This document shows positions 1-47,468 of a stretch of DNA of 64,000 bases, piece after piece. The notes beneath the pieces were generated by a model, which searched no databases, was not told where the DNA came from, and was given only the letters and a program-made list of their open reading frames with translations. Numbering within the stretch: position 1 is the stretch's first letter; each line of letters opens with the position of its first letter. The stretch covers positions 5,260-69,259 of the forward strand of contig JALOCB010000003.1 of assembly GCA_023227985.1 (NCBI GenBank). The letters are read 5' to 3'. The translations under genes were made by a program, and so were the position numbers. Origin of the DNA: Candidatus Omnitrophota bacterium (GTDB lineage: Bacteria > Omnitrophota > Gorgyraeia > Gygaellales > Profunditerraquicolaceae).

Positions 1-3
1 AGA

Positions 4-4767: not shown

Positions 4768-4773
4768 CATTCT

Positions 4774-4828
4774 CAAGACCCGGTCTTGCATCCCAATGAG
4801 TCCTAATGGGTTGCAAGACCGGGTCTTG
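4774..4828. repeat. Paired palindromic motif CAAGACCCGGTCTTG ... CAAGACCGGGTCTTG. It forms a ~22-bp stem hairpin 7 nt after the stop of giant gene 1.
   Basis: caagacccggtcttgca-tcccaatgagtcctaatggg-ttgcaagaccgggtcttg. The arms are reverse complements, and each 15-mer is itself a near-palindrome. No U-tract follows. Confidence 0.75.
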
Positions 4829-4925
4829 AACATGTCTTTATATGAATAAGATAAATCCGTTTCAATTTAAAAACCGCAACAGGCAGAAGTTGTAATTTAA
4901 TTCAAATCATCAACCGGAGGGAAAA

Positions 4926-7900
4926 ATGTTCGTAAGGTTATCCCAAAACAACCTGTTCAGGAAGATCGTCGGCATTCTTATTCTTTTACAATTTTCAGCC
5001 GGTTTTGCCGTGATTAGGGGTTATGCTGCTCCCGGAAATTTGCGGCCTGCCGCCGTCAAACAGGATGGTTCCCGGTCCGGGACTATCCAGAATTCGCTTG
5101 ACGCGGCCAGCCTGGATAAGGTTATAAAAACCCCGGTCATTCATAAGGACGGCGGTATAACCGGCCAGGATGTTTTTAAGAATATCCTTGGCGAATACCG
5201 TGTTTCCTCCACGATAAACAATCTCGCTTTCGGGACGTTCGTCCAGGGGCAGATCGACCTTAGTTCGGTTCAGAACCGGGAAGCGCTGGTCAATAATTTC
5301 GGGGAGATTAAGAGCAAAGATCGTTTTTTTACCCTTGAATACGCGGGAATTCCGCTTGCCCTGGTCAAGAAGGCCGAAACCGGAGAAATTACCGTCAAGA
5401 AAGTAGTCGAAGACATTGCTTCGATCCCGCTCAACATCCTTTCCGACAATGCCGAAAAGCTCAAAACCGAAGGTGTTACTTCCTCGGATATCCTGGTCCG
5501 CGATTTTCTTATCCTTGAAAAAAGGTCGCGTATCGACATCACTCAGTGCATGACCGTAGAGTTTGGCGAGCTGCGCGACTACGTATACAATCTGGCTAAA
5601 AATGTCGGCCAGGAAAAGGCACTGGAGATGGCATCGGCGTTTGCGGGTAAGGCTACCGTTGACGAGGCTATGGCGGAAGTCGGCGAGAAAGCTAAGCAGT
5701 TAGGCCGCGACCAAGCGAAGGACACAGGTCTGGCGCTGGCCGGCGGTAAGGGTTTGAGCCTTTCGGTCATGAGCCGCGTGGTTGACGTGCCGCCTGGTTT
5801 GAACGTTACTACTACCGCGTATTTTAAGTTCGTCAAAGATAATAAACAGGTCTGGGAGAAGATCTTTAATGAGCTGCAGACCTTGGATACTATGGATGAC
5901 CAGAAGCGCGACGTTGTCACTTCGGAGATCCGCGATGTCATTAAAAGCGCGCCGATACCCGAAGACATCAAGGCTGAGGTAACAGCAATGTACCACCAGC
6001 TAAGCGTTATCCGTTTTCTTGCCGGTAAACCTTCGCCCGCTCCGGTGGCTGTCCGCTCTTCCGGCACCAAAGAGGATATTCACGTTAAAACCTGGCTGCC
6101 GGTTTCCACCGGTTCCCAGGCCGGCCAGTCGGATACATTCCTTAATGTTAAGGGCGAACGGGATGTCCTGGATAAATTACGCGCCGATTGGGCGTCTTTA
6201 TTTACCGATCGCGCGGTCAGCTACCGTGATGACGCCACCTTCTTGCAGTTCTCTGGAGCCATCGATTTTAACGGTAAGACTTCTCAGGATGTCTATTGGG
6301 GGATCGTGGCGAAGCTTCGGGAATACTCCAAGAAACTGGATAAGCCTGAATATAACGTGTACGCTGACTTAATGAGTAAAGTCACCAGCCCTAACCCTGG
6401 GTCGGTGAGCCTGATGAACGCCATGGAGGAGATCCTGAGACAGGAATCGAATCCGGAGATGTCCAATGCCCTTGCCGTTCTGAAGAAGAAAGCAGAGGAG
6501 GTTGTGCATCCCGAACAGATCGGTATCGACGTTGTGATCATGCAGATGGCTAAGAGTTATCTTGCCGGCGTGCTTTTTACCGTCAATCCGGCGACCAAGA
6601 TGGCCGGTGTGGCCCAGTCGTTATACAAGTCATGGTATATGGGTGATGATTCGCTCGTGTACCGCGACGCGAAGACCGATATTATCCAGGGAACCAGGCC
6701 CATAGTGGTGAGCTTTGATGTGGCCTTCGGCTACGGCGAGAACGTAGTCGGCGGCAAGGTAAACCCGGACAAGTTCATTATGGGCACCTACGACGGCGAG
6801 AGCTGGTTTGTTATCGAGAAAAGCAAAGGCAATAAACTTATTCAGATGAAGGACGTGGAAGAAGTCATCGATCTCCTCAAAGACAAGATATCGGAAAAGG
6901 GCCAGCGGCAGCTCGCTATGACCGTGAAAGACGCGATCGCGTATGATGAGGTCGGCAAGCGGATCAACGGCATTATGGCGACCAAACTCTACGGTATCAA
7001 GTATCTTAAGGCGCTTGAGGGTAAAGAGGAAAGCGATAAAGACAAGAAGGCCCGCGTACAGGCTATCGCCAATGAGATTGCCGACATGGTCAAGAATAAG
7101 GTTTCCGAGGATGAAGTTGTCGCGTTCATCAAGGGTAACTTTGAGGTCGTTAACCGGAAGGGCTATAAAGGCATTCAGGAAATGGCGCTTTCGGGAGTGG
7201 TCAGGGAAGTGTTTGAGAAAGTCCAACAGGCCCAGGCTGAGACCGACCGGGGTATGTTTAAACTCTCAAAGCAGCTCGGCGATATGGGAAAGGCCGATAC
7301 GCTTATCCATATGATCAAGGAGGTTTGGGAGAATAAGGAATTTACTCTTTCCGACCGCCAGGCGATTCTTGACAAACTGAACCTTACCAACCAGGAATTG
7401 CGTAATATGAGTTACCTTATCCGCGCGCTGGTGGATAATAGCTTTACTTCAAATTATGAGACTACTTTAACCCACCAGGATACCTTTACTATGACCGATG
7501 ATCAGGCCCAGTATGTGGCGCGTATGGGTTGGGCGATCACCGAATATTATAAGGATGCCCGAGATATAGAGTATGCCATCGAGATAGATAAAACCGCTTC
7601 TTCCGACAAAGCGGTGAGGCTTTACGTTGTGGACGACCTGGGCAATGTCCAGGGAATGGACAATAATGGCAACCTGGTAACGGTGAAGTCCGAAAAGGAT
7701 AAAGCGCGTATAAAAGAAGCGAAGCTGCGCCTGTATAACGTGCAGGCCCGTCCGTATACCGCGGAATACTTGAAGGTGGATGTAATGCGCGCCCGGACCG
7801 AAGCGGATGAAAAGTGGCTTGAGGAGAATTCTCCTAAAGCGATTGCCAGCGGGACTAAGGGAGAGAACGCGACGCAGGGTTATGTGCTGGTGTTCGATCC

Positions 7901-10900
7901 TAACAAAGACGTTGCCTGGCACGCGGACCAGATCCGTCGTTTGAAAGCCGGAGATTTTACTGCGGAGGAAAAAGCCCAGATCATGGCTATGGGGTTTAAT
8001 CCCGAAGAGTATGGTTCAGGCAAAGAAAAGCAATTGTCGGTTATTCTTTATCTGCTTGAAGCTGACCCGAATCATGATCCGATCATGCGCCTGGTTGATT
8101 CGGTTGTTACTATCCGCGGCGGCGATACCTGCCACGCGGCTATCTTTTGCCGTGAACAAGGGATCCCTGCGGTCACCGGCGCGGGCAAGGTTATACTCAA
8201 CGGCCAATTGCTTAAGACCGGTGACGCGGTTACCGTTGATGCTAATAACGGGAATATTTACGAAATGCCCGCTGATGCCGGAGCGCGCATTCCGATCAAC
8301 TACGTGAAATTCAAGATTAAACCGTATGGCATCCCCGGCGACGACGACAATATGCCGTATCCGGGCATCGGCCAGATCATCGCCGCGGCAAGTGCCGCTC
8401 AGCAGAACTCGCCTATTATGCTTGCGGTTGACGCGGTCGGTAACTCGCTGACCCGCGCCGAGTTCAAAGGCGAAGAGATCGGTATCAACGTTTACGCCGG
8501 CTATGGCCATTATCTTTTACAGCAGATCAAGGCCGGAAAAATAAAGGAGCCAGTGAGGGTGCGTGTCCAGGAATTGATCCAGGGCAAGGTTCCCGGCGCA
8601 AAGAGGTTCGTGGACAATATTGAAAATGTTATGGCAGGCGCTTTTGCCAAGGATCCCGCCGCGCGTTCGGCATATCGCGACATTATGGGTAAGGATTTCA
8701 ATAAGGCGGATAGCCTGCAATTGCTGGAGTTTTTCGATTTGAAGAGCGACATTGAGCTGTATGGATTGGATGCGCTTAAACTGGTAAAACAGCAGGTTGA
8801 TATTCTTGATCTCGTTCCCCGGCTTCCGGAGAATATGTATCAGACGCTTGAATATCTTTATGGCGCCACTCAGCGCAGGCTCAACTATGATTATAATATT
8901 ATCGCCGATCTTCAGAACCATCCGTGGATACTGAAAGAAGTCGATTCTAAACTCGCGGAAAAGGGTTACGCGACGTTCAAGGAATACATCACTAACGAAT
9001 TCCTGTATTTTTACAATTTGATGGGTTTTACCATTGCGCCCGATCAGACCGCCAAGAACAGGGCTTACGATTTCGCCCAGGATAAGATCCGCGGCATGCC
9101 CGGTTCCGAGGTTTTTTCCTGGCCCGGAGTCAATCCGTTGGTCGGTTTGCGCGGTACGTCGTTGGAGATCGAGGCCTTTGACGAAGATTTCGGCGGCAAT
9201 CAGCTGGTATTGGATTTTCTTTTTGATTCCGTGATCCAGGCGCACCAGAATACCGGTAACCAAGCCTGGTTTTATGTGTTTGTCCGTTCTTCCCGGGAGT
9301 TAGAGACCCTGGATAAGATCATTGAGCACAAGGCTAAGCAGACCGGGAAGCTTCCGAAAGAGATCGGGATCATGATCGAAGTTCCCAGTGCCGCTTTGGT
9401 GGCTGATGAGCTTGCTGTTAAGATGTCCGAGATGGAGAAAAAATATAAGAAGTATGGCGTTGAGCATACTTTCTTTTCCTTCGGCACTAACGACTATTCG
9501 CATCTTGCTGGTATGGGTGACCGTGAAGACCCGCGAATGAAACTCAAGATTATGGATCCCGCAGCGATCGAAGCGATCGGCGAGATGAAAGCAGCGGGGT
9601 ATTATTATGATGATGCTGCTAAAGTGCTTCCGTTGATTGATGAAGGCGCTGATGTTATGCAGCAGCTTATGGAAACAGTGGTTGCTGCGGCTAATGGTTC
9701 AAGCGTGGCTACCTCGCTTTGCGGCGAGGCGATCACCGCCCTGGTTAACCGCGGGGATTATGAGACCGCAGGCAAGATAATGGCGCTTCTGGATTCTTTC
9801 GGCGTGAGCATGATGAAAGTCCGCCTCGCAGCTTCAATGACGCGCGTGGACACCATGGCGGCTACCAAAGGGATCACCATTCCGGAAGCCGGACGTTCGA
9901 TCCTGTTCGATTTGTCTGCCGGCGAGGTGAAACAGAAAAAGGGCGTCATCAAGGGCGAGATAATATTCGTTGATAATGCCGATGATCTCGTCCCGAACGT
10001 CCTTAAAGGCCTTCAGGGTCCGGAGCTGACGAAAAAGAAAGAGATGTTCAAGCTCCAGAGCCTGGAAAACGCCCGTTCGACTATGCGTACCTTCAATAAG
10101 ATCGTAATTATCACTAAAAACCTCGTTGCTCAGCAGGAGCCTGAGTTGGTCGCGGAGATGGGCAAAGCCGCATTCAGCAAGTTTGTCAATGACGGCCTGC
10201 TTAAAGATATCGGTAATGGGCAGTATGTCTGGACGAATCTGGGTGTAAAGACGGAGAAGTTCAACCAGGAATTGACAATTCAAGGTTTCTCTGAAAAAGA
10301 ACGTAAAGCTATTGAAGGTTTGTGGCAGAAGGCCTGGGATAACAGCATTGAAGGGCTTGAGCGCCGCGGAATTGATTGGGATGATCTACAATATGCCAAG
10401 GCTATAATCGTTGATGCGGACGTTAACCTTGATGGCTGGGATGTGTTCCGCAAGGACAAGAGTATTATTCCGACCCGTATCAAGGCTACGGTCAAAGGTA
10501 TAAGCTCCCGCCGTGCGGAGTTAGAAGGGCAATTGGCAACTATAGATTACGCCGCTAAGAAGGTCTACAAGGATTTTCTCAGCGTGGAAAAGATCGCTGC
10601 CGTCCTGCGCAGTCTTCCTATCCCAGCGGAAAAGCCTATGATAACTACGCAATCGGCTGTCGCGGAGAACGCCAACAGTGTATACCAGAAGATCGGGTAT
10701 CATCCTAAGCTCCTTCTTGCCTATGAGCGGAATGCTGTGAATGAACTTGGAAAGATATTCGAGGAATATGTAGGCAAGCTGGTTGAAGAAGTTGAAAAAG
10801 TTACTCAGGAGACCGACGTTCAGAAACGCGTATGGCTTTTACAGAAACTGCAGAATAAAGTTGGCGGGCTTGCGGAACCGATGATCAAATCGTTTATGAG

Positions 10901-12698
10901 CGATGTGCTTTCCGAGGCCATGCGCACAGGTGCGGTAACGCTGCCGGATAACTGGAACAAGAAGCTTTGGGAGGCCTATCGCAGCGACCTGGAAAGCGAG
11001 ATCAGTAAGATCCTTAACGGAAAGACGGTTGAGCAGTATTTTATCGCGCAGTTCAGCGAACAGATGAAGGAAGTGCTCTCCGCCAACAAAGGGGCATTGG
11101 TTGTCCATCTTTTGGGAAGCCTCAACTGTGTTGATTTCTTTAATATGAAAGGCGGTTTCCTGGTTGAACAGGTCAATCCCAACCCTGATTACGGCATTCT
11201 TGGAGCGGCGCGCGCAATAGGGGATATGTGGGAGATAAACCGCATGGAATTGTCCGCTTTTAAGGCGGTATGGGATAATCTGCCGGTTGACCAGCGCGGT
11301 AATTTTGGCCTGCAGATCACCAATCTCAAAGGCACCCAGTCCGGCGCGGTGGTGATCGGCTGGCGTAATATTCTGAAACAAACCGGTATTATCCCGGGGC
11401 AAGACGGTTTGCAGGTTGGCGTCAATATCGTCACTCCGGCGGATAGCATCGCTGCGGATAAGTATTTTGAGTACTTTAATACGCTCGGAAGCGGGTTAAG
11501 TTTTATCTCATATGATGCGTTGAAGCTTGGCGCTGCCTGGGCCGGCGTGGATATTTTTTGGAAGGAATGGAGGAGGCTGGCTAAGGAAGATGAGTTGTTG
11601 AGGTTCGGCGTCATGACCGGCTGGATGGCGGAAGCCAAGGCTCTGAGGTTCGGCGGCAAAGTCCTTTCCTTTGATATTTCTGACGAAGCCAAACAGACTG
11701 ACGGCGGCGCTGAGGTTGTGCCTTACCGGGTAGTGGTGGAGAATCTCTTCCGGGGGATCATTAAGAAATATGATGCTTTGGATAACGGCCAAGCTCTTTC
11801 TCTCGAAAAAGAAGAGTTGGAGGCAATACTCTGGATCTTGAATTCTTCTCCTTTTGAGAATATGTCAAGCCCGTTTGCCGCGATCAAGAGTATGAAGAAT
11901 ATCAGGAATGTGATCGAAAGGCTCAGCGATGACCAAAAGAAGGCCCTAAGTGTACTTTCACAGGGCTTGGTTTTTGTCAATCACGGGCTGGATAAAAAGG
12001 TGGCGGCATTGCTCGTAGACAAGAAGTTGCTCGACACCGCATATGAATCCGACACGGCGGTATATAAAGGGTTGAACAGCGGTTTTGACAGCTTCGCCAA
12101 TGCCTTGAAAGAGGTTAAGAATGCCGAGGGCGCTTTAGTGGTTAGCGCAAATGCTGTGTTGAATAACGCCGGAACGCTGAGAGTCCTGAGAGAAATAAAA
12201 GAAACCGGGCTGACCTTGGAAATAATCGTCCGGGCTGATACGGAAGATCAGGTGAATAAGCTGATTGCCCTTCGGGCAGACGAAGTCGCGACTATCCAGG
12301 CCAAGCGGCTGTCAGTTGTGCTCAGCGGCTTGAAGAACGCGGGTATAACCGATGGCAAGATAGTGGTGATTAAAGGCAAAGAAGAAGTAAAAGACGCGGT
12401 AGAAGCCGGCGTAAAGGTCGTAGAGATCTCCATGCCTAAAACAGAGGAGTCCAGTATCAACTCCATGGCCTTAGTTGCGGCAAAAGCGGTAATCATAGTG
12501 TTAAATGGTGAAGAAACGGTTGCCGCGCAATACCGGGAAATGGCGGTAAAATACGCCGCAGATAACAGCGTAACCTCTGAAGAATTGGATGATCTGCAGG
12601 ACCTGACCAGCCAGATCTCGGAGATACCCATGGCCAAGGTCAGCGAAGAAGTCGCTAAGGCGCAGGCCACTTATGAGGAGACTATAAGCAAGATATAA
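4926..12698 (+). CDS. Giant 2590-aa protein: N-terminal hydrophobic anchor/signal + pyruvate phosphate dikinase/PEP synthase-like enzyme + ~900 aa unassigned region + conserved C-terminal module
   Basis: RBS ggaggg lies 6 nt upstream of the ATG. N-terminus has the hydrophobic stretch IVGILILLQFSAGFAVI followed by RGYAAPGNLRPAAVK. PPDK N-terminal domain: GGKGLSLSVM...VPPGLNVTTTAYFKFV and VAVRSSGTKED...NVKGERDVLDKLRADWASLFTDRAVSYR. Phospho-His swivel motif: RGGDTCHAAIFCREQGIPAVTG. PEP-utilising TIM barrel: IGIMIEVPSAALVADE...FFSFGTNDYSHLAGMGDRED. The C-terminal ~190 aa are closely related to the C-terminus of the previous gene. Confidence 0.8.
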   Translation: MFVRLSQNNLFRKIVGILILLQFSAGFAVIRGYAAPGNLRPAAVKQDGSRSGTIQNSLDAASLDKVIKTPVIHKDGGITGQDVFKNILGEYRVSSTINNLAFGTFVQGQIDLSSVQNREALVNNFGEIKSKDRFFTLEYAGIPLALVKKAETGEITVKKVVEDIASIPLNILSDNAEKLKTEGVTSSDILVRDFLILEKRSRIDITQCMTVEFGELRDYVYNLAKNVGQEKALEMASAFAGKATVDEAMAEVGEKAKQLGRDQAKDTGLALAGGKGLSLSVMSRVVDVPPGLNVTTTAYFKFVKDNKQVWEKIFNELQTLDTMDDQKRDVVTSEIRDVIKSAPIPEDIKAEVTAMYHQLSVIRFLAGKPSPAPVAVRSSGTKEDIHVKTWLPVSTGSQAGQSDTFLNVKGERDVLDKLRADWASLFTDRAVSYRDDATFLQFSGAIDFNGKTSQDVYWGIVAKLREYSKKLDKPEYNVYADLMSKVTSPNPGSVSLMNAMEEILRQESNPEMSNALAVLKKKAEEVVHPEQIGIDVVIMQMAKSYLAGVLFTVNPATKMAGVAQSLYKSWYMGDDSLVYRDAKTDIIQGTRPIVVSFDVAFGYGENVVGGKVNPDKFIMGTYDGESWFVIEKSKGNKLIQMKDVEEVIDLLKDKISEKGQRQLAMTVKDAIAYDEVGKRINGIMATKLYGIKYLKALEGKEESDKDKKARVQAIANEIADMVKNKVSEDEVVAFIKGNFEVVNRKGYKGIQEMALSGVVREVFEKVQQAQAETDRGMFKLSKQLGDMGKADTLIHMIKEVWENKEFTLSDRQAILDKLNLTNQELRNMSYLIRALVDNSFTSNYETTLTHQDTFTMTDDQAQYVARMGWAITEYYKDARDIEYAIEIDKTASSDKAVRLYVVDDLGNVQGMDNNGNLVTVKSEKDKARIKEAKLRLYNVQARPYTAEYLKVDVMRARTEADEKWLEENSPKAIASGTKGENATQGYVLVFDPNKDVAWHADQIRRLKAGDFTAEEKAQIMAMGFNPEEYGSGKEKQLSVILYLLEADPNHDPIMRLVDSVVTIRGGDTCHAAIFCREQGIPAVTGAGKVILNGQLLKTGDAVTVDANNGNIYEMPADAGARIPINYVKFKIKPYGIPGDDDNMPYPGIGQIIAAASAAQQNSPIMLAVDAVGNSLTRAEFKGEEIGINVYAGYGHYLLQQIKAGKIKEPVRVRVQELIQGKVPGAKRFVDNIENVMAGAFAKDPAARSAYRDIMGKDFNKADSLQLLEFFDLKSDIELYGLDALKLVKQQVDILDLVPRLPENMYQTLEYLYGATQRRLNYDYNIIADLQNHPWILKEVDSKLAEKGYATFKEYITNEFLYFYNLMGFTIAPDQTAKNRAYDFAQDKIRGMPGSEVFSWPGVNPLVGLRGTSLEIEAFDEDFGGNQLVLDFLFDSVIQAHQNTGNQAWFYVFVRSSRELETLDKIIEHKAKQTGKLPKEIGIMIEVPSAALVADELAVKMSEMEKKYKKYGVEHTFFSFGTNDYSHLAGMGDREDPRMKLKIMDPAAIEAIGEMKAAGYYYDDAAKVLPLIDEGADVMQQLMETVVAAANGSSVATSLCGEAITALVNRGDYETAGKIMALLDSFGVSMMKVRLAASMTRVDTMAATKGITIPEAGRSILFDLSAGEVKQKKGVIKGEIIFVDNADDLVPNVLKGLQGPELTKKKEMFKLQSLENARSTMRTFNKIVIITKNLVAQQEPELVAEMGKAAFSKFVNDGLLKDIGNGQYVWTNLGVKTEKFNQELTIQGFSEKERKAIEGLWQKAWDNSIEGLERRGIDWDDLQYAKAIIVDADVNLDGWDVFRKDKSIIPTRIKATVKGISSRRAELEGQLATIDYAAKKVYKDFLSVEKIAAVLRSLPIPAEKPMITTQSAVAENANSVYQKIGYHPKLLLAYERNAVNELGKIFEEYVGKLVEEVEKVTQETDVQKRVWLLQKLQNKVGGLAEPMIKSFMSDVLSEAMRTGAVTLPDNWNKKLWEAYRSDLESEISKILNGKTVEQYFIAQFSEQMKEVLSANKGALVVHLLGSLNCVDFFNMKGGFLVEQVNPNPDYGILGAARAIGDMWEINRMELSAFKAVWDNLPVDQRGNFGLQITNLKGTQSGAVVIGWRNILKQTGIIPGQDGLQVGVNIVTPADSIAADKYFEYFNTLGSGLSFISYDALKLGAAWAGVDIFWKEWRRLAKEDELLRFGVMTGWMAEAKALRFGGKVLSFDISDEAKQTDGGAEVVPYRVVVENLFRGIIKKYDALDNGQALSLEKEELEAILWILNSSPFENMSSPFAAIKSMKNIRNVIERLSDDQKKALSVLSQGLVFVNHGLDKKVAALLVDKKLLDTAYESDTAVYKGLNSGFDSFANALKEVKNAEGALVVSANAVLNNAGTLRVLREIKETGLTLEIIVRADTEDQVNKLIALRADEVATIQAKRLSVVLSGLKNAGITDGKIVVIKGKEEVKDAVEAGVKVVEISMPKTEESSINSMALVAAKAVIIVLNGEETVAAQYREMAVKYAADNSVTSEELDDLQDLTSQISEIPMAKVSEEVAKAQATYEETISKI
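12130..12698 (+). repeat. Copy B of the duplicated C-terminal-module segment (paired with 4190..4767)
   Basis: See copy A. The two copies can be aligned codon by codon. Confidence 0.7.
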
Positions 12699-12704
12699 TA
12701 TATT

Positions 12705-12758
12705 GAGGCCGGGTCTTGTAACCGATTCAAACGCAAGGGAATACAAGACCGGGTCTTG
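12705..12758. repeat. Second occurrence of the (G)ACCGGGTCTTG palindromic motif pair, 7 nt after the stop of giant gene 2 and abutting the RBS of giant gene 3
   Basis: gaggccgggtcttgtaaccgattcaaacgcaagggaatacaagaccgggtcttg. Same core motif and same two-copy architecture as at 4774..4828. Confidence 0.7.
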
Positions 12759-12778
12759 ATAATTAGAGGAGGGAAAAG

Positions 12779-15700
12779 ATGTCCAGGCCGTCTAAAAACA
12801 ATAGTATCTCTAAAATAATTTCCGGCGTTGTGATCGCGCAATTTATCATGAGCAGTATAGCCCTGCGCGGTTATGCCGGCACAGACAATTTAAGGCCGGC
12901 TCCGGTCAAAGATTCCGACCGGATAAGCGTTCTGGCCGATGAATTGCAGAAAGACGGCGGCAAACTGGCTGAATGGATCCATATCTTAGCGGAAAATACA
13001 ATTGTGGGCGATGCCGCTAAAGGTTCGAACGTCGGCATGGTCATACGGCTGGGAAAGCTTGTTGAAGAGAATATATCCGGGTCCATATTAGGGCATTCGG
13101 CAAACCGGAAGGCGTATATAAAGGAAGTGGGCGCTCAAATCGCTGAAGGGCTGCGTTTGACCGGAATGGAAGAAAAGGCGATCGCGGCTGCCAGCCGCAA
13201 GATAGCTTTTTCCAGATACGATAACATCATGAATCACCGGATCCAGGCGATGTTTCAAGCAGGGATCAGGGAGATCTGCCTTTGCGTAGGCAGTGATAAG
13301 GATAAGCTCACCGTTGAGGAAGAGATATCGGATGTGCTTGCGCAGTTGCAGGTGTCTTTTGCCGATGTCTCTTTGGAACAAATAAAAAAGATAATTTTCC
13401 ACGTGGCTTGGGAGCCTGCGGCGAATATCGGCACCGGTACTGCTGTCGGTCCGGAAAAGATCAAGCTGGTCCATCAGGCTATCTATGAATTCTTTGCCGA
13501 GAAGTATAATACACCCTCCGGGTATATCGGCGATGTTTGGGGGAAGTCATTGAAAATACTTTACGGCGCAAGCGTTGACGGAAAGAACGTCGACGGCATA
13601 ATGGCGGTGAAAGAGGATAAAGGCATGGCTTTGGTGCACGGCGTGTTATTCGCTTCTTCGGGTAAAAAGGCCGATGGCTTCCTGGCTGTGGCCGAGGGGG
13701 TTAGCCGCGCCGCGGAAAGGGATAACGCCCAGTATGTCTGTTTTGTCAACCTTAAGGAATTCGCCAGGGCTGAGAAAGATGAGGCTTTGACTTTTGTCGT
13801 CGAGATCGTCCGGGCCATTGCTTTAGGACGGATCGATCCCCGGCATACCATTCTGGCGATCGCTGACCAGGATGTACATCTAAAGGAGTGGCAGGACGCG
13901 ATCGTCGGCAGAAGCGTTTCGATGTCGGACGGCGGATACGCGTATGTTGAAGGAACGAACTTTAAGGACAAGAATGTGCTTTTTCGCCCGGATTATAACA
14001 CTCCGGCTTCGGTAAAGACCGATGATCAGGGTAATGTTTTGTCGATCAAAATATCCGACGCAAGCAGGATCGTTGATTCCTTCCCGGCTTTGACCAAGAT
14101 CCTGAAAGATAAGCCAAAACATGTGGTTGTCGTTGTCCATTTCGAACCTAAGGTGTTGAATCCCGCGACCGGTAAGAAAGACAAGAAAAATCTGTCTACT
14201 AAAGTCACAGCGGACAAACTTAAAGAATTGCTGCCGGCGGAATATAAAGATAAGGTAATATTCCTGGCTGATTCAGTCAATGACAATGGGATTGCCGCCG
14301 AAGCAATGCGGGCTATAGAAAGTTATACTGATTCCGAGATCATCGTATTGGAAAATATCCGTTTTGCCAAAGGCGAAAAGAAAGGTGCCCCCGAGCTTAA
14401 TGATCCTAAAGGTGTAGCTTTACGCAAACAGCTTTCAGGATTAGCGGACGAATATGTGGTGGATGCCTTGGGTAATATTCATCGCGCCCACGCATCAATG
14501 CTGCCTTTGCCCGGGGTGCATAAAGTCATGGGCAGTCTTGTGGAAAAAGAGATTAAAGTGTTCAACCGGATACTTAACCCGGCGCATCCTTATGCCGGGG
14601 TTAACGGCGGTAATAAGGTTGAAGATAAAGTGGATACCATGGATGTGTCTTTGTCGACGATGCAGGAAGGCGACGCGATCATCATCGGCGGGGCTATGGC
14701 CTACACTTTTTTAAAGGCGCAGGATCCAACATTGAAATTGGGCAAATCACTTGTTCAGGCGGATAAAGTTGATCTGGCTAAGACTATACTTGAGAAGGCC
14801 GCCCGGAAGAAGGTGCGGATAATCCTTCCAGTGGACCATCGCATCTCGGATAAACTCGCTCCCGGAGCAGCAGAATTGGTTACTGAGGGGCTGGAAGTGC
14901 CGGATGGGTACATGGCGGTAGATATCGGACCCAAGACTGAAAAAATAGTCGCCGAGGTCTTAAGTAATGCCCAGACCGCTTTTTGGAACGGCCCAATGGG
15001 CGCGTTCGAGGATGAGGCTGGTGGTTTTAATAAGGGGACTTATACGGTTGCCAGGGAACTGCAGAAAATGGGCAGGTCCGGACGCCTGGCCGGTATCGGC
15101 GGCGGGGAGACACGTATGGCAGCAATTAAGGCCGGGGTTACCGATGCTGACGGCGTGTTCATGTCCAGCGGCGGCGGTTCCACGCAGGAATATTTCGCCA
15201 AGAAAGGCAATCTCCCGGTGATCAAGAATCTGGAGAATGACGAAACCGCCCAGAAAAATCTCGTCCTCGCGGGGAAATTGGGGGTAGAACCCGCGGATCT
15301 GGCGCGTTTTGAAGCGGCAGACAGCAGTATTTATAATGCCTTGGGAGATAAACTTTTCAACGGCTATATATCTCAGGTCAGAAGGTTGCTTCCCAGGTTT
15401 TCGACAGGCCAGAAATTAAACGGCGCTCTGTCCAAAGCAGAGGTCTCTGCGGAGGTGATTAAAGATTCGCGCGGAAACAATACTGTCCGGGCAACTTTAA
15501 AGATCGGGGATATTGTTACTGTCGGCGAAGTCCCTGCAGGCGCTTCCAAAGGGGCAGCTGAGGCTTTTGCTTTTCCGCCGAAGGAAATAGATAGGGCGAT
15601 CGCCAACGTGGCGAAGATCCAGGAGATACTTAAGAACAGCGGCCTGGATATAAGCAAACACAGCGATCTGCGCAAGACGGAACAATTGATCATTGCCGCG

Positions 15701-17302
15701 GCCGGTGAAAACTTCGCGACACTGGGCGCGAACGCCACAGTCCCTATTTCCTGGGCCTTGTGGAGGATGGCGGCAGCGTTGAATAATATGGAACTCTGGG
15801 AATACATCCGGATCAATGAGCCGGGAGTTGTCGGTAATGATCCGGTTTATTTCTATATGAACATATATAACGGCGGGCTGCACGCTTCCGGAGGCGACGC
15901 TTCGGTATTGGGTACAGTTTGGACCGAATTCCAGGAGATGCTGATCGTGCCCGTGGGCGCTAAAACTCACGCCGAAGGCGTGGCTATGGGAGATAAGATC
16001 GACCAGGAATTGAAGAAAATACTGAAAGGTAAATTCGCGGAAGCGGATATAATGCGTAAAGATGAAGCTGGTTTCGCGGTCAAAGGCCTGGGAAAAAGCG
16101 AAGACGCGATCGCTTATGTGGTACAGGCGATCAGGAACGCCGGCTATGAGCCCGGTAAAGACGTAAAGCTGGCTTTGGATGTCGCCGCGACCTCTTTCTA
16201 CGACGAGAAAGAGAATATATACAAGTTCCAGGGCCAGAAATTGACCTCAGCCGAGATGGTCGATTTTTACGTCAAACTGGTAAAGCAATATGACGGCCTG
16301 TTCCTTTCTATAGAAGACGGCCTGGCTGAAGAAGATTGGCAGGGATGGGTAGAGCTAACCGCGGCTATGAAAGAAAAAGGCGTCCTGACTATAGGCGATG
16401 ATCTGTACGTTACCCAGCACGGCCGGTTGAACAAAGGGCTGGCGATGAACGCGGCTACAGCGATCCTGATCAAGGTTAATCAAAATGGGACCCTGGGCGG
16501 AACTATCGATGTTATGAAGACCGCCAAGGCCAATGGCATTAAAGCTGTGGTATCGCACCGTTCCGGAGAAACTCTGGATGCCGGGATCGCGGATCTGGCT
16601 TACGCAACCCGGGCGTTCGGGCTTAAAACCGGGGATCCTCAACCTTTGGTTGATTTCCAGAATCCGAACGAACTGGTGCGCCGGGCTAAGTATGACAGGA
16701 TGATCGAGATCCAGAAACAAGAAAACATCCAAAATGACCCGGCATTATCCAGGCCTAAAGCGCTGTTGATCAATGCGGATTTTTTCAAATCCGGCGCGGT
16801 TAAGAACGCTGTGGCGGAAATAGCGAGATTAAACGGGAATATCAATGTGGTGATCTACGGAGATAATGCCGAAAAGCTAAAGACGCTGGTAGGAAATCCC
16901 GATATTATCGCGGTGCGGAGTTTGACTGCAGCTGTCTCTGAAATAGCTAACCGCGGGGTAAAATCTTCTCAGGATGCCGTTATTTTGACGCCTATGCCGT
17001 ATAGCTCGGAAACGTTTATTGTTCAAATCCGCAGCGGAGAAATAAGCACGCTGGCTTTGGCCAAGGCGGTAAAGCAGTTATTCAAGAACGACCGGATCAC
17101 CGCGGCTATGGATGAATTCTATAAATCGCTGGTTGATAACAAAGTGGTTTCCGAGCAGGACTACATAAATACAAGGGAAAAAATCCTAACGGATCTGATC
17201 GACGGTGTTTACAACCTGGGTGAGATTAAGTTGACAAAACAGGTATCTGATGTTATAGAAAAGGAGCGGCTGGTAACCGAAGAGTTCGTGGGTAAAGTGT
17301 AA
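12779..17302 (+). CDS. Giant 1507-aa fusion protein: N-terminal anchor + triosephosphate isomerase + phosphoglycerate kinase + enolase domains
   Basis: RBS aggagg lies upstream of the ATG. N-terminus has IISGVVIAQFIMSSIALRGYAGTDNLRPAPVK, sharing the RGYA..NLRPA.VK motif with the previous gene. TIM domain: GHSANRK, AWEPAANIGTGTA, ILYGASVDGKN. PGK domain: ENIRFAKGEKKG, GNIHRAHAS, GGAMAYTFLKA, VDIGPKT, FWNGPMGAFE, GIGGGET. Enolase domain: IKDSRGNNTV, MLIVPVGAK, LALDVAATSFY, LSIEDGLAEEDW, IGDDLYVTQ, ILIKVNQNGTL, VVSHRSGETLD. Confidence 0.8.
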   Translation: MSRPSKNNSISKIISGVVIAQFIMSSIALRGYAGTDNLRPAPVKDSDRISVLADELQKDGGKLAEWIHILAENTIVGDAAKGSNVGMVIRLGKLVEENISGSILGHSANRKAYIKEVGAQIAEGLRLTGMEEKAIAAASRKIAFSRYDNIMNHRIQAMFQAGIREICLCVGSDKDKLTVEEEISDVLAQLQVSFADVSLEQIKKIIFHVAWEPAANIGTGTAVGPEKIKLVHQAIYEFFAEKYNTPSGYIGDVWGKSLKILYGASVDGKNVDGIMAVKEDKGMALVHGVLFASSGKKADGFLAVAEGVSRAAERDNAQYVCFVNLKEFARAEKDEALTFVVEIVRAIALGRIDPRHTILAIADQDVHLKEWQDAIVGRSVSMSDGGYAYVEGTNFKDKNVLFRPDYNTPASVKTDDQGNVLSIKISDASRIVDSFPALTKILKDKPKHVVVVVHFEPKVLNPATGKKDKKNLSTKVTADKLKELLPAEYKDKVIFLADSVNDNGIAAEAMRAIESYTDSEIIVLENIRFAKGEKKGAPELNDPKGVALRKQLSGLADEYVVDALGNIHRAHASMLPLPGVHKVMGSLVEKEIKVFNRILNPAHPYAGVNGGNKVEDKVDTMDVSLSTMQEGDAIIIGGAMAYTFLKAQDPTLKLGKSLVQADKVDLAKTILEKAARKKVRIILPVDHRISDKLAPGAAELVTEGLEVPDGYMAVDIGPKTEKIVAEVLSNAQTAFWNGPMGAFEDEAGGFNKGTYTVARELQKMGRSGRLAGIGGGETRMAAIKAGVTDADGVFMSSGGGSTQEYFAKKGNLPVIKNLENDETAQKNLVLAGKLGVEPADLARFEAADSSIYNALGDKLFNGYISQVRRLLPRFSTGQKLNGALSKAEVSAEVIKDSRGNNTVRATLKIGDIVTVGEVPAGASKGAAEAFAFPPKEIDRAIANVAKIQEILKNSGLDISKHSDLRKTEQLIIAAAGENFATLGANATVPISWALWRMAAALNNMELWEYIRINEPGVVGNDPVYFYMNIYNGGLHASGGDASVLGTVWTEFQEMLIVPVGAKTHAEGVAMGDKIDQELKKILKGKFAEADIMRKDEAGFAVKGLGKSEDAIAYVVQAIRNAGYEPGKDVKLALDVAATSFYDEKENIYKFQGQKLTSAEMVDFYVKLVKQYDGLFLSIEDGLAEEDWQGWVELTAAMKEKGVLTIGDDLYVTQHGRLNKGLAMNAATAILIKVNQNGTLGGTIDVMKTAKANGIKAVVSHRSGETLDAGIADLAYATRAFGLKTGDPQPLVDFQNPNELVRRAKYDRMIEIQKQENIQNDPALSRPKALLINADFFKSGAVKNAVAEIARLNGNINVVIYGDNAEKLKTLVGNPDIIAVRSLTAAVSEIANRGVKSSQDAVILTPMPYSSETFIVQIRSGEISTLALAKAVKQLFKNDRITAAMDEFYKSLVDNKVVSEQDYINTREKILTDLIDGVYNLGEIKLTKQVSDVIEKERLVTEEFVGKV

Positions 17303-17331
17303 TTACCGCAGCTGATATAAAATGTTCTTTT

Positions 17332-17389
17332 AGAGGCCTCTGGAGAATTCCTATAAAGGATTATATCAGAGGCCTCTGATCTTTTGGGG
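17332..17389 (+). terminator. Paired palindrome AGAGGCCTCTG x2, followed by a T-tract: probable rho-independent terminator of the giant-gene operon
   Basis: tagaggcctctggag...atcagaggcctctgatcttttgggg. The second copy cagaggcctctg is followed by atcttttgggg. Confidence 0.55.
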
Positions 17390-17399
17390 CCCGAATGAA

Positions 17400-18701
17400 A
17401 TGTTAAGGCGCATCAGGACAATTAAAAAAAAGGTTAAAATCATATTCTGCGCGGCAGCCGCGGTTTGTGCGGTTGTGTGTTTTTTACCGGTAACCTGCCA
17501 GGCGGGTATGGCGGGTAGTGAACAGATAAGCGCGCTAAGCTTAAAAGGCATCCAATGGGAGAGCCTGCCGGGCGGGGGGACGCGCTTAAAGATCTTTGCT
17601 GACGGCTTAAAGGCCGGAAGGTTTGAGCCATTGATCGATCCGGAAGAGTCCGGGCGCAGGTTAATGGATTTTTTTATCCTGGGTTTGAATGTCCGGGAAG
17701 ACAAATTCTGGGCCAATCTTACTCCCGGCGATCCGGATAATATCATTGACCCGGATTTGGCCGGGACGCCCTTAGGCGAGGTTATGCTCAGGGCGGACCT
17801 GAGATTGAAAAAAGATTTCTGTGAATTGACCAACCCGCAGTTTTCCCAGCCCGGCAAAAAATACTGGGCAGCCTTATCGGAAAAAGCGGCGGAACTGGGC
17901 ATTAAGAAAATACCCGCGATGAACCGCGTGTGGATAGTCCCGGAAGAGGCTGCGGTTTATGAGGCCGGAAACGGGGCTTATATAACCGAAAGCCGGCTTA
18001 AGGTCTGCCTGAAAATAAATTATTCAGCCGGTCTTCTTAAGGACGGCGGCGGTAAGGCGTACGGCGAACTTTCGGAGTATGCCGGAGAATTGGTAAGGGA
18101 TATTATTTTGCCTGAATTGGATAAAAGGGTTAATGAGGATTTCCTCTATGCTGACCTGAGGCAGGTAAATAGGGCATTGATACTGGCCAGATGGTATAAT
18201 AACAAATTCGGCGATGGCGGGGGATTTAATTTAAAAAATACCCTGACAGCATCGAGCCGGCCTGAGATAAACGCGGGCTTGCTAAAGAAACAGATATATG
18301 ATGATTACATGGATTCTTTGAGCAATGGCGAATATGTGGTCGTCGGGCCGTCAGGCTGGTCCAGCGCATTGGATTATTTAAGGCCTAAGAAACGTTATAT
18401 CAGCGGAGGTGTTGATTTGCGCAAAAGTCCGGCAAGGCGCAGCCCGGCGCCTGCGGCAGCCTGGCAAGGCCGGGATCCGCAGTTTACATTTTTAGTGGAA
18501 ATATCCGCGCAGGCAGTTATGTCCGCGGGAGATAAAAATAATGCGATAAATGATTTTTCCGTCATAGGAAATATCGGGGATAATAATGTAGAAGGGCTAA
18601 TCCGGGATTTGCCGGGAATATCGCCTTCGCGTAATAACCGGGATGCGGAAACCGATATAAATAAAGGCGTTATAAGCGATATGGTATTATATAGTTTATA
18701 A
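17400..18701 (+). CDS. Hypothetical secreted/membrane-anchored protein (433 aa)
   Basis: Long ORF with coding-like composition. N-terminal hydrophobic segment IIFCAAAAVCAVVCFLPVTCQAG. No recognisable catalytic motif. Confidence 0.5.
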   Translation: MLRRIRTIKKKVKIIFCAAAAVCAVVCFLPVTCQAGMAGSEQISALSLKGIQWESLPGGGTRLKIFADGLKAGRFEPLIDPEESGRRLMDFFILGLNVREDKFWANLTPGDPDNIIDPDLAGTPLGEVMLRADLRLKKDFCELTNPQFSQPGKKYWAALSEKAAELGIKKIPAMNRVWIVPEEAAVYEAGNGAYITESRLKVCLKINYSAGLLKDGGGKAYGELSEYAGELVRDIILPELDKRVNEDFLYADLRQVNRALILARWYNNKFGDGGGFNLKNTLTASSRPEINAGLLKKQIYDDYMDSLSNGEYVVVGPSGWSSALDYLRPKKRYISGGVDLRKSPARRSPAPAAAWQGRDPQFTFLVEISAQAVMSAGDKNNAINDFSVIGNIGDNNVEGLIRDLPGISPSRNNRDAETDINKGVISDMVLYSL

Positions 18702-18704: not shown

Positions 18705-18738
18705 ATCTTTACAGCAGCGCGGTTTTTGTTATAATAAA
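18705..18738 (+). promoter_or_regulatory. Candidate sigma70 promoter (TTTACA - 16 nt spacer - TATAAT) upstream of the PilZ gene
   Basis: tttacagcagcgcggtttttgttataat, in an AT-rich intergenic region. Confidence 0.3.
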
Positions 18739-29322: not shown

Positions 29323-29362
29323 AAACAAAAAACCCGCTCAAAATTCCGAGCGGGTTTTTTGT
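29323..29362. terminator. Bidirectional rho-independent terminator
   Basis: aaaacaaaaaacccgctcaaaattccgagcgggttttttgtt: an A-tract, a 9-bp GC-rich stem, and a T-tract. It serves the + strand TPR gene and the - strand tRNA-fMet. Confidence 0.8.
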
Positions 29363-29408
29363 TGGAAATTGCGGGGGCCAGATTTGAACTGACGGCCTTC
29401 AGGTTATG

Positions 29409-30033
29409 CTTGCTACTACAGCTTTAGCTGCTCCGCTATCAAGCGGATTCGTAGTCTGGACTATATCTTGACCAACTATCGTTGGCCCCTGCCGTTTAGT
29501 CTCTACACTTTTCTCCGTTGCCGGAGACTTAGCTCGGTATTACCTTGACTTGCGTCGAGGGTTTCACCGAATTTGACAGGATATCCTTCAACCGTTACCG
29601 GTTGAGGAGCCCTTCGGACAATAAACTCCATCGTTGCCTGTACAGTGCGGACATCGGTTTGCGCTGTCGTTTGCCGCTTTCGACTAAACTGATGGTGCTG
29701 CCGAATTTGGTAAAGACAGAGCAGGGGACGATGTAGAACACATTCAGGGGTTCGATTACAGCACCGCAAAATCGAAATCATCCGCGTCATATCTCGCCCG
29801 CAACATCCTTCGTCTGTTCGTCTTGGTCCGTCTGACATCGACACAATACATGTCGTTTTTCTGGTCGAACCAAGCGCTTTTGACTTGAATGCGCAGAAGT
29901 TTACCATCCAGGTCGATCGCCAGATCATAAGGGAGGCGATCCCCGAACGGTTTGAGCACCCTGAACCCTTGTTTCAGGAGTTCAGTGATGACGGCAGATT
30001 CTGCGATGTCAGATTTGAGTTTTTTATCCATTG
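29409..30033 (-). ncRNA. Group I intron (IC3-like) inserted between U33 and C34 of the tRNA-fMet anticodon loop
   Basis: Exon ends with U at -1 and the intron ends with G (omega G). The core elements GUCAAAUUCGGUGAAACC, CCGAGCUAAG, GUGUAGAGACUAAACGGCAGGGG (R/P7) and AAGAUAUAGUCCAGAC (S/P7') closely match the Azoarcus tRNA-Ile and cyanobacterial tRNA IC3 introns. A 91-codon ORF occupies the 5' part of the intron. Confidence 0.8.
29756..30031 (-). CDS. Intron-encoded ORF (91 aa), putative PD-(D/E)xK-like homing endonuclease
   Basis: The AUG is at intron nucleotides 3-5 (CA-AUGGAUAAAAAA), in frame with the upstream exon. Sequence MDKKLKSDIAESAVITELLKQGFRVLKPFGDRLPYDLAIDLDGKLLRIQVKSA..., with E...PYD...IDLDGK / IQVK resembling a restriction-endonuclease-fold core. 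The analogous cyanobacterial tRNA-fMet intron encodes the PD-(D/E)xK enzyme I-Ssp6803I. The six-frame ORF 29756..30061 is this ORF spuriously extended into the tRNA exon. Confidence 0.45.
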   Translation of the reverse strand: MDKKLKSDIAESAVITELLKQGFRVLKPFGDRLPYDLAIDLDGKLLRIQVKSAWFDQKNDMYCVDVRRTKTNRRRMLRARYDADDFDFAVL

Positions 30034-47424: not shown

Positions 47425-47468
47425 AGTCCCTTGTCCGGCTTCTGCCGGGCAAGGGACTGCTTATTTTA
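47425..47468 (+). terminator. Rho-independent terminator after nrdJ
   Basis: agtcccttgtccggcttctgccgggcaagggact followed by gcttatttta. Confidence 0.75.

What the first reader, a model, noticed from the sequence alone, without database searches (positions are those of the whole stretch)
4774..17389. Paired self-complementary motifs placed 7-50 nt after each giant gene's stop codon
CAAGACCCGGTCTTG followed by CAAGACCGGGTCTTG lies 7 nt after the stop of gene 1. gaGGCCGGGTCTTG followed by CAAGACCGGGTCTTG lies 7 nt after the stop of gene 2 and runs into the RBS of gene 3. AGAGGCCTCTG occurs twice, beginning 29 nt after the stop of gene 3, before a T-tract. Each pair can form either one long hairpin or two short ones. 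Only the last has a U-tract. The first two look like intercistronic RNA elements (processing or stability sites, or a palindromic operator for a dimeric regulator) rather than terminators. That would allow differential expression of the megaproteins from one transcript.
Basis: seen in the sequence. Interest (0 to 1): 0.55.

Follow-up and report, generated by a model that had tools for sequence, protein, structure and literature searches.

The report
Dispersed REP-like hairpins after giant genes
The paired palindromes after the first two giant genes are copies of a small hairpin-forming repeat that is scattered through several Omnitrophota genomes, much like the REP/REPIN repeats of E. coli and Pseudomonas, so they are not a control element special to this locus; the third hairpin is a separate, locus-specific structure that looks like a terminator.

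Summary
Long hairpins start 0-6 nt after the stops of gene 1 (4767-4835, -44 kcal/mol) and gene 2 (12701-12761, -28 kcal/mol). A third starts 27 nt after the stop of gene 3 (17330-17379, -29 kcal/mol) and is followed by TCTTTT. The "two palindromes" are the two arms of one hairpin. Alone, each 15-mer folds at only -4.3 kcal/mol.

The doublet CAAGACCSGGTCTTG-spacer-CAAGACCSGGTCTTG occurs at 27 loci in four Omnitrophota MAGs, 17 of them in one MAG, plus two loci in MAGs with other labels. These copies are extragenic and mostly lie between co-directional genes, a median of about 6 nt after the upstream stop. Spacers differ between genomes. Both orientations occur, and some copies are recent. This is the architecture of REP doublets (REPINs).

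Elements A and B have exact cores, and their 25-nt spacers resemble those of one subfamily. A sits at the same site in relatives whose gene 3 product is 67-86% identical, with three compensatory pair changes. B is absent from those relatives. C was not found dispersed.

A and B are not canonical terminators: they have no U-tract, and there is no room for a promoter before gene 3. Their effect on mRNA stability, processing or ribosome stalling is inferred, not shown. The window's own genome beyond 64 kb and the presence of a RAYT transposase could not be tested.

The parts
4767..4835 (+). Element A: a REP-doublet (REPIN-like) hairpin. The cores are at 4774-4788 (C-centred) and 4814-4828 (G-centred), with a 25-nt spacer at 4789-4813. 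The extended arms are 4767-4795 and 4807-4835, so the base of the hairpin touches the stop codon of gene 1.
   Evidence: The structure is conserved at the orthologous site in L001, L004 and L007, with 3 compensatory pairs. It is identical in the 99.7%-identical contig L082. The spacer resembles the 25-nt subfamily.
12701..12761 (+). Element B: a second doublet of the same family. The left core (12704-12718) is degenerate and the right core (12744-12758) is exact, with a 25-nt spacer at 12719-12743. It ends 7 nt before the RBS of gene 3.
   Evidence: It is absent after gene 2 in L004, L007, L008 and L009. Three of its four arm differences are G.U pairs on the sense RNA: -28.1 kcal/mol on the + strand against -17.7 on the - strand.
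17330..17385 (+). Hairpin C: the inverted pair TAGAGGCCTCTG / CAGAGGCCTCTG with a 24-nt spacer that forms a small internal stem-loop, followed by TCTTTT (17380-17385). Its core differs from A and B, and it was not shown to be dispersed.
   Evidence: It is conserved only in the 86% relative L001 (and its duplicate L065), and absent in L004, L006 and L007.
1..4767 (+). Gene 1, cut off by the 5' end of the window: a fusion of FBP aldolase II, PFK and GAPDH. It is the cistron upstream of element A.
4926..12698 (+). Gene 2 (2590 aa): pyruvate phosphate dikinase domains plus a long extension. Its C-terminal module is homologous to that of gene 1. It is the cistron upstream of element B.
12779..17302 (+). 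Gene 3 (1507 aa): a fusion of TIM, PGK and enolase. It is the cistron upstream of hairpin C.
17400..18701 (+). Gene 4 (433 aa, no Pfam match). It starts 21 nt after hairpin C and is followed by a strong promoter-like site at 18708-18735.

Best explanation
Elements A and B belong to a family of short repetitive extragenic palindromes arranged as inverted doublets. Each doublet has two 15-nt palindromic cores, CAAGACC(C/G)GGTCTTG, in opposite orientation around a variable spacer. This is the architecture described for REPINs (REP doublets forming hairpins).

The family is scattered through several Omnitrophota genomes, almost always in the short gap between two co-directional genes and a few nucleotides after the upstream stop codon. 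That much is shown.

It is inferred that the doublets spread as single-stranded hairpins, through a RAYT/IS200-like HUH transposase or through gene conversion.

It is also inferred that, once transcribed inside the gene 1-gene 4 message, each doublet folds into an 18-26 bp hairpin. By analogy with E. coli REPs, such a hairpin can block 3'-to-5' exonucleases and so stabilise the upstream cistron. It can offer a long duplex to RNase III. Because it starts within 15 nt of the stop codon, it can also hinder terminating ribosomes and lower the yield of the upstream protein. Transcription must largely read through it, because the next gene has no room for a promoter of its own.

Element A has been kept at its site for a long time and may have been co-opted. 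B is a later gain in this lineage. Hairpin C is a different, locus-specific hairpin with a short U-tract, and is most simply a leaky terminator or attenuator or a 3' stabiliser.
For: Dispersal. The pattern GGTCTTG-N5-35-CAAGACCSGGTCTTG hit 40 loci among GTDB species representatives. Twenty-seven are in four Omnitrophota MAGs (VGKK01 17, JBDRKE01 6, JBAZTA01 2, JAHJJA01 2), and two more full doublets are in MAGs with other labels. The other 11 hits are one core plus a half-site inside ORFs of unrelated GC-rich genomes.

Context. About 21 of 34 elements have both an ORF stop upstream and an ORF start downstream on the same strand. The median distance is about 6 nt from the stop and about 20 nt to the next start. 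None is clearly convergent.

Doublet structure. The central base alternates C/G between the two cores. Spacers are specific to each genome (10 nt in VGKK, 25 in JBDRKE, CAZKSS and the window, 22 in JBAZTA, 4-20 in JAHJJA) and extend the stem.

Recent copying. Three doublets follow three unrelated genes within 1.4 kb in L036, and two of them have identical spacers.

Membership of A and B. Their cores are exact, their spacers are 25 nt long, and the spacers score against the subfamily profile with shuffle p of 2e-4 to 2e-3.

Gain and loss. A is present in L001, L004 and L007; B is absent there.

Structure kept at site A. There are 23 pairs, 3 of them with compensatory double changes.

Not a terminator. 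There is no U-tract, canonical terminators exist elsewhere in the window, and no promoter-like site lies in the gaps.

No Rfam family matches.

Literature. The REPIN definition is in PMC3337134. The finding that REPs within 15 nt of a stop codon stall ribosomes is from Liang 2015, as summarised in PMC12306157.
Against: The window's own genome was not in the collections searched. In its 64 kb the motif occurs only at these two sites, and in about 100 kb of syntenic DNA from relatives it occurs only at site A. Dispersal in this particular genome is therefore inferred from other species.

No RAYT or other cognate protein was identified. A tblastn search with E. coli RayT against the 0.79 Mb of DNA held found nothing, which is uninformative.

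The 5' GTAG motif typical of RAYT-linked REPs is absent. The same core in genomes of 32-49% GC is unusual for REPs, which tend to be species-specific, and could point to a conserved host factor instead.

Across the family, G.U pairs on the sense strand do not outnumber those on the antisense strand (8 against 7). There is thus no general sign of selection on the RNA structure.

More distant orthologous loci (L008, L009) carry an unrelated hairpin at the same place after gene 1. This hints at a need for a hairpin at that site that a purely selfish-element view does not predict.

No expression data were available.
Confidence: 0.68

Rival explanations
1. This is a locus-specific intercistronic regulatory RNA, the first reader's view: processing or stability sites that evolved to set the ratio of the three glycolytic megaproteins made from one transcript.
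For: All three hairpins lie just after the stop codons in tight intercistronic gaps. Hairpin A is conserved with compensatory changes. Distant relatives have a different hairpin at the same place after gene 1. B keeps its pairing on the sense strand through G.U pairs.
Against: The same doublet follows many unrelated genes in other Omnitrophota. B and C are missing from most orthologous loci. There is no excess of sense-strand G.U pairs across the family.
Confidence: 0.12
2. These are intrinsic terminators or attenuators without a U-tract that split the cluster into separate transcription units.
For: They are strong GC-containing hairpins downstream of stop codons. A is followed by a 97-nt AT-rich gap and by the conserved sequence AACATGTCTTTATA. 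C has TCTTTT 2 nt after the stem.
Against: A and B have no U-tract, while the window's canonical terminators do. B, C and most family members end 10-25 nt before the next start codon, which leaves no room for a promoter. No promoter-like sites lie in the gaps. No family member lies between convergent genes.
Confidence: 0.1
3. The 15-bp palindrome is a binding site in duplex DNA for a conserved dimeric host protein, such as a nucleoid-associated or topological factor (as with gyrase or IHF at E. coli BIMEs), or an operator.
For: The palindrome is perfect, and the identical core is kept in genomes of 32-49% GC, which is more conservation than is usual for REPs. No strand asymmetry was found.
Against: The spacing between the two cores ranges from 4 to 25 nt, so there is no fixed helical phasing. 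At site A the orthologues change the core sequence but keep complementarity between the arms; in L001 the arms are no longer self-palindromic. The position inside operons after stop codons is not typical of operators.
Confidence: 0.08
4. This is chance, or a by-product of local duplication: B is simply copied along with the homologous 3' end of gene 1, and C arose by tandem duplication of a 36-nt unit that contains a palindrome.
For: The last ~130 nt of genes 1 and 2 are clearly homologous. At C, a 27-nt direct repeat of 78% identity with 36-nt spacing includes the palindrome.
Against: The spacers of A and B share only 12 of 25 positions, no more than either shares with elements in other genomes. 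The flanks beyond the stop codon are unrelated. The family is plainly dispersed elsewhere. For C this origin remains possible.
Confidence: 0.02

Closest known systems
REPINs (REP doublets forming hairpins) of Pseudomonas fluorescens SBW25 and other bacteria, with their RAYT transposases (PMC3116915, PMC3337134)
   Same: There are two short palindromic REP cores in inverted orientation. The central bases of each palindrome mark its orientation. The spacer varies in length and sequence but extends the hairpin. The elements are extragenic, occur in many copies per genome, and include recent copies.
   Different: These elements are much shorter: 34-55 nt in total with 15-nt cores, against about 89 nt. 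The cores are perfect palindromes. No GTAG-type 5' motif is seen. No RAYT has been identified. The same core is shared by several species with different GC content, whereas REPIN populations are usually specific to a lineage.
E. coli REP/BIME elements (for example malE-malF and nrdAB)
   Same: They are extragenic palindromes inside operons, often 1-20 nt after a stop codon. They occur as inverted pairs with short linkers. They act as mRNA stabilisers, and when they lie within 15 nt of the stop codon they lower translation of the upstream gene (Liang 2015, as summarised in PMC12306157).
   Different: The sequence is unrelated. E. coli REPs are imperfect palindromes of about 35 nt. No functional data exist for the Omnitrophota family.
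Inverted pairs of DNA uptake sequences that form terminator-like hairpins after genes in Neisseria and Haemophilus (from general knowledge)
   Same: A short conserved motif occurs as an inverted pair downstream of genes and is shared across related species.
   Different: Uptake sequences occur about once per kilobase, are not themselves palindromic, and also lie inside genes. The density here is far lower and the elements are almost all extragenic.
MITEs and Correia-type miniature elements
   Same: They are small, non-autonomous, dispersed elements with inverted ends that are co-transcribed with neighbouring genes.
   Different: No target-site duplications are visible at the flanks. The elements are well below typical MITE size, which is 100 nt or more.

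Membership tests
REP / REPIN-like repeats | A short palindromic core that can form a stem-loop | tested here: met
   The 15-nt core CAAGACC(C/G)GGTCTTG folds as a 6-bp stem at -4.3 kcal/mol.
REP / REPIN-like repeats | [quoted passage not shown] | tested here: met
   A, B and most family members are doublets with opposite centres, C/G or G/C depending on the genome. The hairpins fold at -21 to -44 kcal/mol.
REP / REPIN-like repeats | Many copies dispersed in one genome | tested here: inconclusive
   This is met in related genomes: 17 exact doublets in MAG VGKK01 and 6 in JBDRKE01. For the window's own genome only 64 kb is available, with 2 copies, and that genome was not in the collections searched.
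REP / REPIN-like repeats | Predominantly extragenic location | tested here: met
   About 31 of 34 elements lie outside long ORFs, mostly between co-directional genes. The possible exceptions are L035 and L046 3434-3483; at L043 no ORF was called on either side.
REP / REPIN-like repeats | A cognate RAYT (HUH Y1 transposase) gene in the genome, often flanked by the repeats | tested here: inconclusive
   A tblastn search with E. coli RayT against all 0.79 Mb of DNA held gave no credible hit. This sample is far too small, and whole genomes could not be searched.
REP / REPIN-like repeats | A conserved 5' GT(A/G)G tetranucleotide next to the palindrome (typical of RAYT-associated REPs; from general knowledge) | tested here: not met
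   The cores begin with CAAG and end with CTTG, and the flanks show no conserved GTAG.
Intrinsic (Rho-independent) terminator | A GC-rich stem of about 5-14 bp with a short loop, immediately followed by a U-tract | tested here: not met
   A and B have 18-26-bp stems and 11-21-nt loops, and are followed by AACATG and ATAATT. C meets this partly, with TCTTTT 2 nt after the stem but a 24-nt loop region. Canonical examples in the same window are at 29324-29363 and 47425-47458.
Known structured RNA family (Rfam 15) | A match at or above a family's gathering score | tested here: not met
   There were no gathering-level hits at the three sites. In E-value mode only sub-threshold miRNA-precursor models matched, which is generic long-hairpin noise.
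MITE | Terminal inverted repeats with target-site duplications, and a length of roughly 100-400 nt | tested here: not met
   No duplicated flanks are seen, and the elements are 34-55 nt long.

The most novel reading that the evidence does not exclude
The 15-nt palindrome is not merely selfish DNA. It would be a phylum-wide 'punctuation' hairpin, kept unchanged across Omnitrophota of very different GC content because a conserved host factor reads it, such as an RNase III-type nuclease, a hairpin-binding protein or a domesticated HUH enzyme. It would sit directly after stop codons to uncouple neighbouring cistrons. At this locus it would set the relative output of the giant glycolytic fusion proteins encoded on one very long transcript.
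Probability: 0.15. Interest if true: 0.6.

Novelty: new member of a known kind. Interest (0 to 1): 0.3.

Why it matters
This removes a tempting but wrong reading, that of a bespoke regulator of the megaprotein operon. It replaces that reading with a testable one: Omnitrophota, a phylum of small, largely uncultured and probably host-dependent cells with compact genomes, carry a REP-doublet family that no paper in the held literature describes.

Three features make the family worth a closer look. Its core is identical in several species. It is very small. It sits almost on top of stop codons, the position where E. coli REPs are reported to reduce translation of the upstream gene.

In practice the motif is a useful marker when curating Omnitrophota assemblies. 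Long perfect hairpins cause assembly and gene-calling errors, and in one relative a copy lies inside an uninterrupted reading frame. The family would also be a handle for looking for the cognate transposase or binding protein.

Tried and rejected
1. Exact-protein look-up of gene 3 found nothing on record. Homologues were then found by search, and eight syntenic contigs were fetched. Two others could not be read because the sample files were too large.

2. Strand-specific RNA selection. B's three sense-strand G.U pairs looked promising, but across the family the count is 8 sense against 7 antisense. This is not general evidence.

3. Relative orientation of A and B. I first read the spacers as being in opposite orientation. 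A profile test showed that both orientations score significantly, because the spacer is itself partly palindromic. The orientation is therefore undetermined and I dropped the claim.

4. Hairpin C as a second dispersed family. The exact pair pattern in JGI metagenomes returned only the orthologue (L065) plus unrelated tandem repeats and hairpins from other organisms. No other copy exists in the loci held. Dispersal was not shown.

5. Rfam at gathering and E-value thresholds gave no family.

6. Viral contigs gave one half-match, so there is no link to phages.

7. The RAYT search in the DNA held found nothing and is uninformative.

8. The sigma-70 promoter scan of the three gaps found nothing. 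The consensus may not apply to this phylum.

9. Protein comparison between the window and the repeat-bearing MAG loci, done to gauge relatedness, found no shared orthologous regions.
Full report
**1. What is in the sequence**

The window opens inside a run of four co-directional genes. Gene 1 is cut by the window start and ends at 4767. Gene 2 is 4926-12698, gene 3 is 12779-17302 and gene 4 is 17400-18701.

- CAAGACCCGGTCTTG at 4774-4788 and CAAGACCGGGTCTTG at 4814-4828, six bases after the TAA of gene 1.
- TGAGGCCGGGTCTTG at 12704-12718 and CAAGACCGGGTCTTG at 12744-12758, after the TAA of gene 2.

With up to three mismatches the 15-mer has 7 matches in 64 kb against 1.2 expected. No shuffle out of 100 reached 7, and the only good copies are these four.

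The second copy of each pair is the reverse complement of the first. Only the central base distinguishes the two, so each pair is one long inverted repeat. For A the arms are 29 nt long and 90% complementary.

As RNA the three regions fold at -44.0, -28.1 and -28.8 kcal/mol, with z-scores of -9.6, -5.5 and -3.9. A single 15-mer folds at only -4.3 kcal/mol and the 12-mers of C at 0 to -1.5. The 'two short hairpins' alternative exists but is thermodynamically minor.

**2. Organism and locus**

The three large genes encode fusions of glycolytic enzymes:
- Gene 1: aldolase, PFK and GAPDH.
- Gene 2: pyruvate phosphate dikinase plus a long extension.
- Gene 3: TIM, PGK and enolase.

The best homologues of gene 3 come from Candidatus Omnitrophota MAGs. 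I fetched syntenic contigs at 99.7% DNA identity (L082) and, by protein identity of gene 3, at 86% (L001-3), 68% (L004/5), 67% (L006/7) and 38-42% (L008, L009, L010, L083).

**3. What the relatives show at the three sites**

After gene 1, every relative down to 67% identity has a long hairpin starting 6-7 nt after the stop codon.

In L004 and L007 the loop is only 8 nt, so the two 'palindromes' are simply adjacent arms. In L001 the arms are no longer self-palindromic but still pair with each other. RNAalifold on the four distinct sequences gives 23 pairs, three of them with compensatory double changes (A-U to G-C, G-C to C-G, C-G to A-U) and several one-sided wobble changes.

At 41-42% identity (L008, L009) an unrelated hairpin, GCCTGCT...AGCAGGC, occupies the same place.

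After gene 2 the element is absent in L004, L008 and L009. In L001 and L007 different hairpins take its place.

After gene 3 the AGAGGCCTCT hairpin is present only in L001 and its duplicates.

A is therefore old at its site. B is a gain in the window's lineage, and C is specific to the closest clade. 'One element after each giant gene' is not a conserved design.

**4. The decisive test: is the motif dispersed?**

I scanned one genome per GTDB species for GGTCTTG-N5-35-CAAGACCSGGTCTTG. Forty loci matched.
- Eleven are a single core plus a 7-nt half-site inside ORFs of unrelated, mostly GC-rich genomes. This is of the order of my rough estimate of the chance rate, a few hits.
- Twenty-seven lie in four Omnitrophota MAGs: VGKK01 has 17, JBDRKE01 has 6, JBAZTA01 has 2 and JAHJJA01 has 2.
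- Two more full doublets lie in MAGs labelled 'uncultured bacterium' and 'Planctomycetales'.

The cores are identical to those in the window, while the spacer is specific to each genome:
- 10 nt in VGKK01, which gives a perfect 18-bp stem with a tetraloop at -35 kcal/mol.
- 25 nt in JBDRKE01 and CAZKSS01.
- 22 nt in JBAZTA01.
- 4-20 nt in JAHJJA01.

In L036, three doublets follow three unrelated genes within 1.4 kb, and two of them have identical spacers. That indicates recent copying. Some loci carry three or four cores in a row.

The host loci range from 32% to 49% GC.

The spacers of A and B are 25 nt long. They score against a profile of the JBDRKE/CAZKSS spacers with shuffle p-values of 2e-4 to 2e-3. 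A and B are no more alike than either is to elements in other genomes: 12 of 25 positions match. B is therefore not simply a copy of A carried along with the homologous 3' end of the gene.

The window's own locus was not among the hits. Its genome is thus not in that collection, and dispersal in this particular genome is inferred rather than shown.

**5. Context of the family**

I used simple ORF calls around 34 elements. About 21 have both an ORF ending upstream and an ORF starting downstream on the same strand. The stop-to-element distances run from -3 to 87 nt, with a median of about 6. The element-to-start distances have a median of about 20. None lies clearly between convergent genes.

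Both loop orientations occur relative to transcription. Counting imperfect arm positions, G.U pairs on the sense strand (8) do not outnumber those on the antisense strand (7). B's three sense-strand wobbles therefore remain an anecdote, even though they make the + strand fold at -28.1 against -17.7 kcal/mol for the - strand.

**6. What it is**

The anatomy matches the published description of REPINs. These are two REP palindromes in inverted orientation, with the central bases marking orientation. The spacer varies in length and sequence but keeps the hairpin. The elements are extragenic and occur in many copies (PMC3337134; PMC3116915).

It also recalls E. coli BIMEs. I therefore file A and B as REP-doublet (REPIN-like) repeats.

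Two defining features are open or unmet. No RAYT was found, but only 0.79 Mb could be searched. The GTAG-type 5' motif is absent.

Rfam has no matching family. I found no paper that describes such repeats in Omnitrophota.

**7. How it most likely works**

Shown: the elements lie on the transcribed strand in gaps too short for a promoter. B ends 20 nt before the ATG of gene 3, and C ends 21 nt before gene 4. No sigma-70-like site lies in any of the three gaps.

A and B lack a U-tract. The window does have canonical terminators, at 29324-29363 (A-tract, stem, T-tract) and at 47425-47458. Efficient termination at B would silence the TIM-PGK-enolase gene, so read-through must be the rule.

Inferred: in the mRNA each doublet forms an 18-26-bp duplex whose base touches or nearly touches the stop codon. 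For E. coli REPs three roles are reported, and all are plausible here:
- A barrier to 3' exonucleases, which stabilises the upstream cistron.
- Reduced translation of the upstream gene when the REP lies within 15 nt of the stop codon (Liang 2015, as summarised in PMC12306157).
- Attenuation of transcription.

A long perfect duplex is also a plausible RNase III substrate. None of these effects could be tested.

Because A has kept its structure across substantial divergence, and distant relatives have another hairpin there, co-option at that one site is credible. For B and for the family as a whole, a neutral or selfish status is the default.

Hairpin C has the same doublet layout but a different core. 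No other copy turned up in the JGI metagenome scan apart from the orthologue. With its TCTTTT tail it is best read as a leaky terminator or a 3' stabiliser. It may have arisen by a 36-nt tandem duplication. Alternatively it may belong to a second REP group that could not be detected without the genome.

**8. Verdict**

This is a new member of a known kind. Interest is modest. What lifts it somewhat is the unusual conservation of one 15-nt core across species, the small size of the element, and its position right next to stop codons.

Noticed in passing
window 1-17302: The three 'giant genes' are fusions of glycolytic enzymes. Gene 1 carries FBP aldolase II, PFK and GAPDH. Gene 2 carries pyruvate phosphate dikinase domains within a 2590-aa protein. 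Gene 3 carries TIM, PGK and enolase. Genes 2 and 3 have hydrophobic N-termini. The cluster is syntenic in about ten Omnitrophota-type contigs and is followed by PilZ, sugar ABC transporter, MFS and GH2 genes. A 2026 preprint (10.64898/2026.06.07.730766) mentions 'multi-enzyme metabolic' giant proteins in Omnitrophota, but the passages I retrieved from it do not describe this operon.
   Followed up: partly
window 29366-29633, - strand: Rfam finds a complete group I intron at 29437-29633 (61.6 bits). Directly 3' of it lies a tRNA-like T-arm and acceptor end (GGCCGTCAGTTCAAATCTGGCCCCCGCA, 29366-29405). ARAGORN calls no tRNA there even with introns allowed. The host gene of the intron is unresolved.
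   Followed up: partly
window 4560-4767 and 12490-12698: Genes 1 and 2 share a homologous C-terminal module (…LTSQIS..P..KVSEEV.KAQ.TYEET..KI*), with clear DNA similarity over the last ~130 nt. The same …SKI* ending recurs on genes 1 and 2 of relatives and on an extra 454-aa gene in L001. Its function is unknown.
   Followed up: partly
gene 2 orthologues: window 4926-12698; L001 4003-9959; L004 5681-9955; L008 2157-9962: Gene 2 is mosaic among relatives. It is 2590-2601 aa in the window, L082 and L008, but 1424-1500 aa in L001, L004 and L007, with a different N-terminus. In L001 it is followed by a terminator-like hairpin (GGTTCCCATGTGCC-ATA-GGCACATGGGAACC plus a T-rich tail) and by an extra gene.
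   Followed up: no
L046 3434-3483 (MAG JAHJJA01): One REP-like doublet lies inside an uninterrupted reading frame that joins a PurS-like 72-aa segment to a ~920-aa downstream ORF whose first residues look PurL-like; neither assignment was checked against a database. Either the element is translated in frame or the gene call is wrong.
   Followed up: no
L036 1941-3997 (MAG JBAZTA01): Three doublets lie in 1.4 kb after unrelated small genes. An integrase-like fragment (…YHDLKHTYVSQL…) sits just upstream, so this may be a hypervariable or integrated region.
   Followed up: no
L064 2017-2058, L069 634-674, L074 3833-3875 (metagenome contigs, GC 0.36-0.45): AGAGGCCTCTG…CAGAGGCCTCT hairpins with the same core as hairpin C are flanked by repeated GATTACACAGATT units. 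This is a different repeat family in unidentified hosts.
   Followed up: partly
window 18708-18735: This is the best sigma-70-like promoter match in the first 20 kb (TTTACA-16-TATAAT with an upstream TG, 11 of 12). It lies just after gene 4 and before the PilZ gene, which suggests that the giant-gene transcription unit ends at gene 4.
   Followed up: no
window 4756-4767 and orthologues: The last codons of genes 1 and 2 (…CAAGATCTAA and …CAAGATATAA) contain CAAGAT, a near match to the REP half-site CAAGACC that lies just upstream of the inserted elements. This may be coincidence or a target preference.
   Followed up: no
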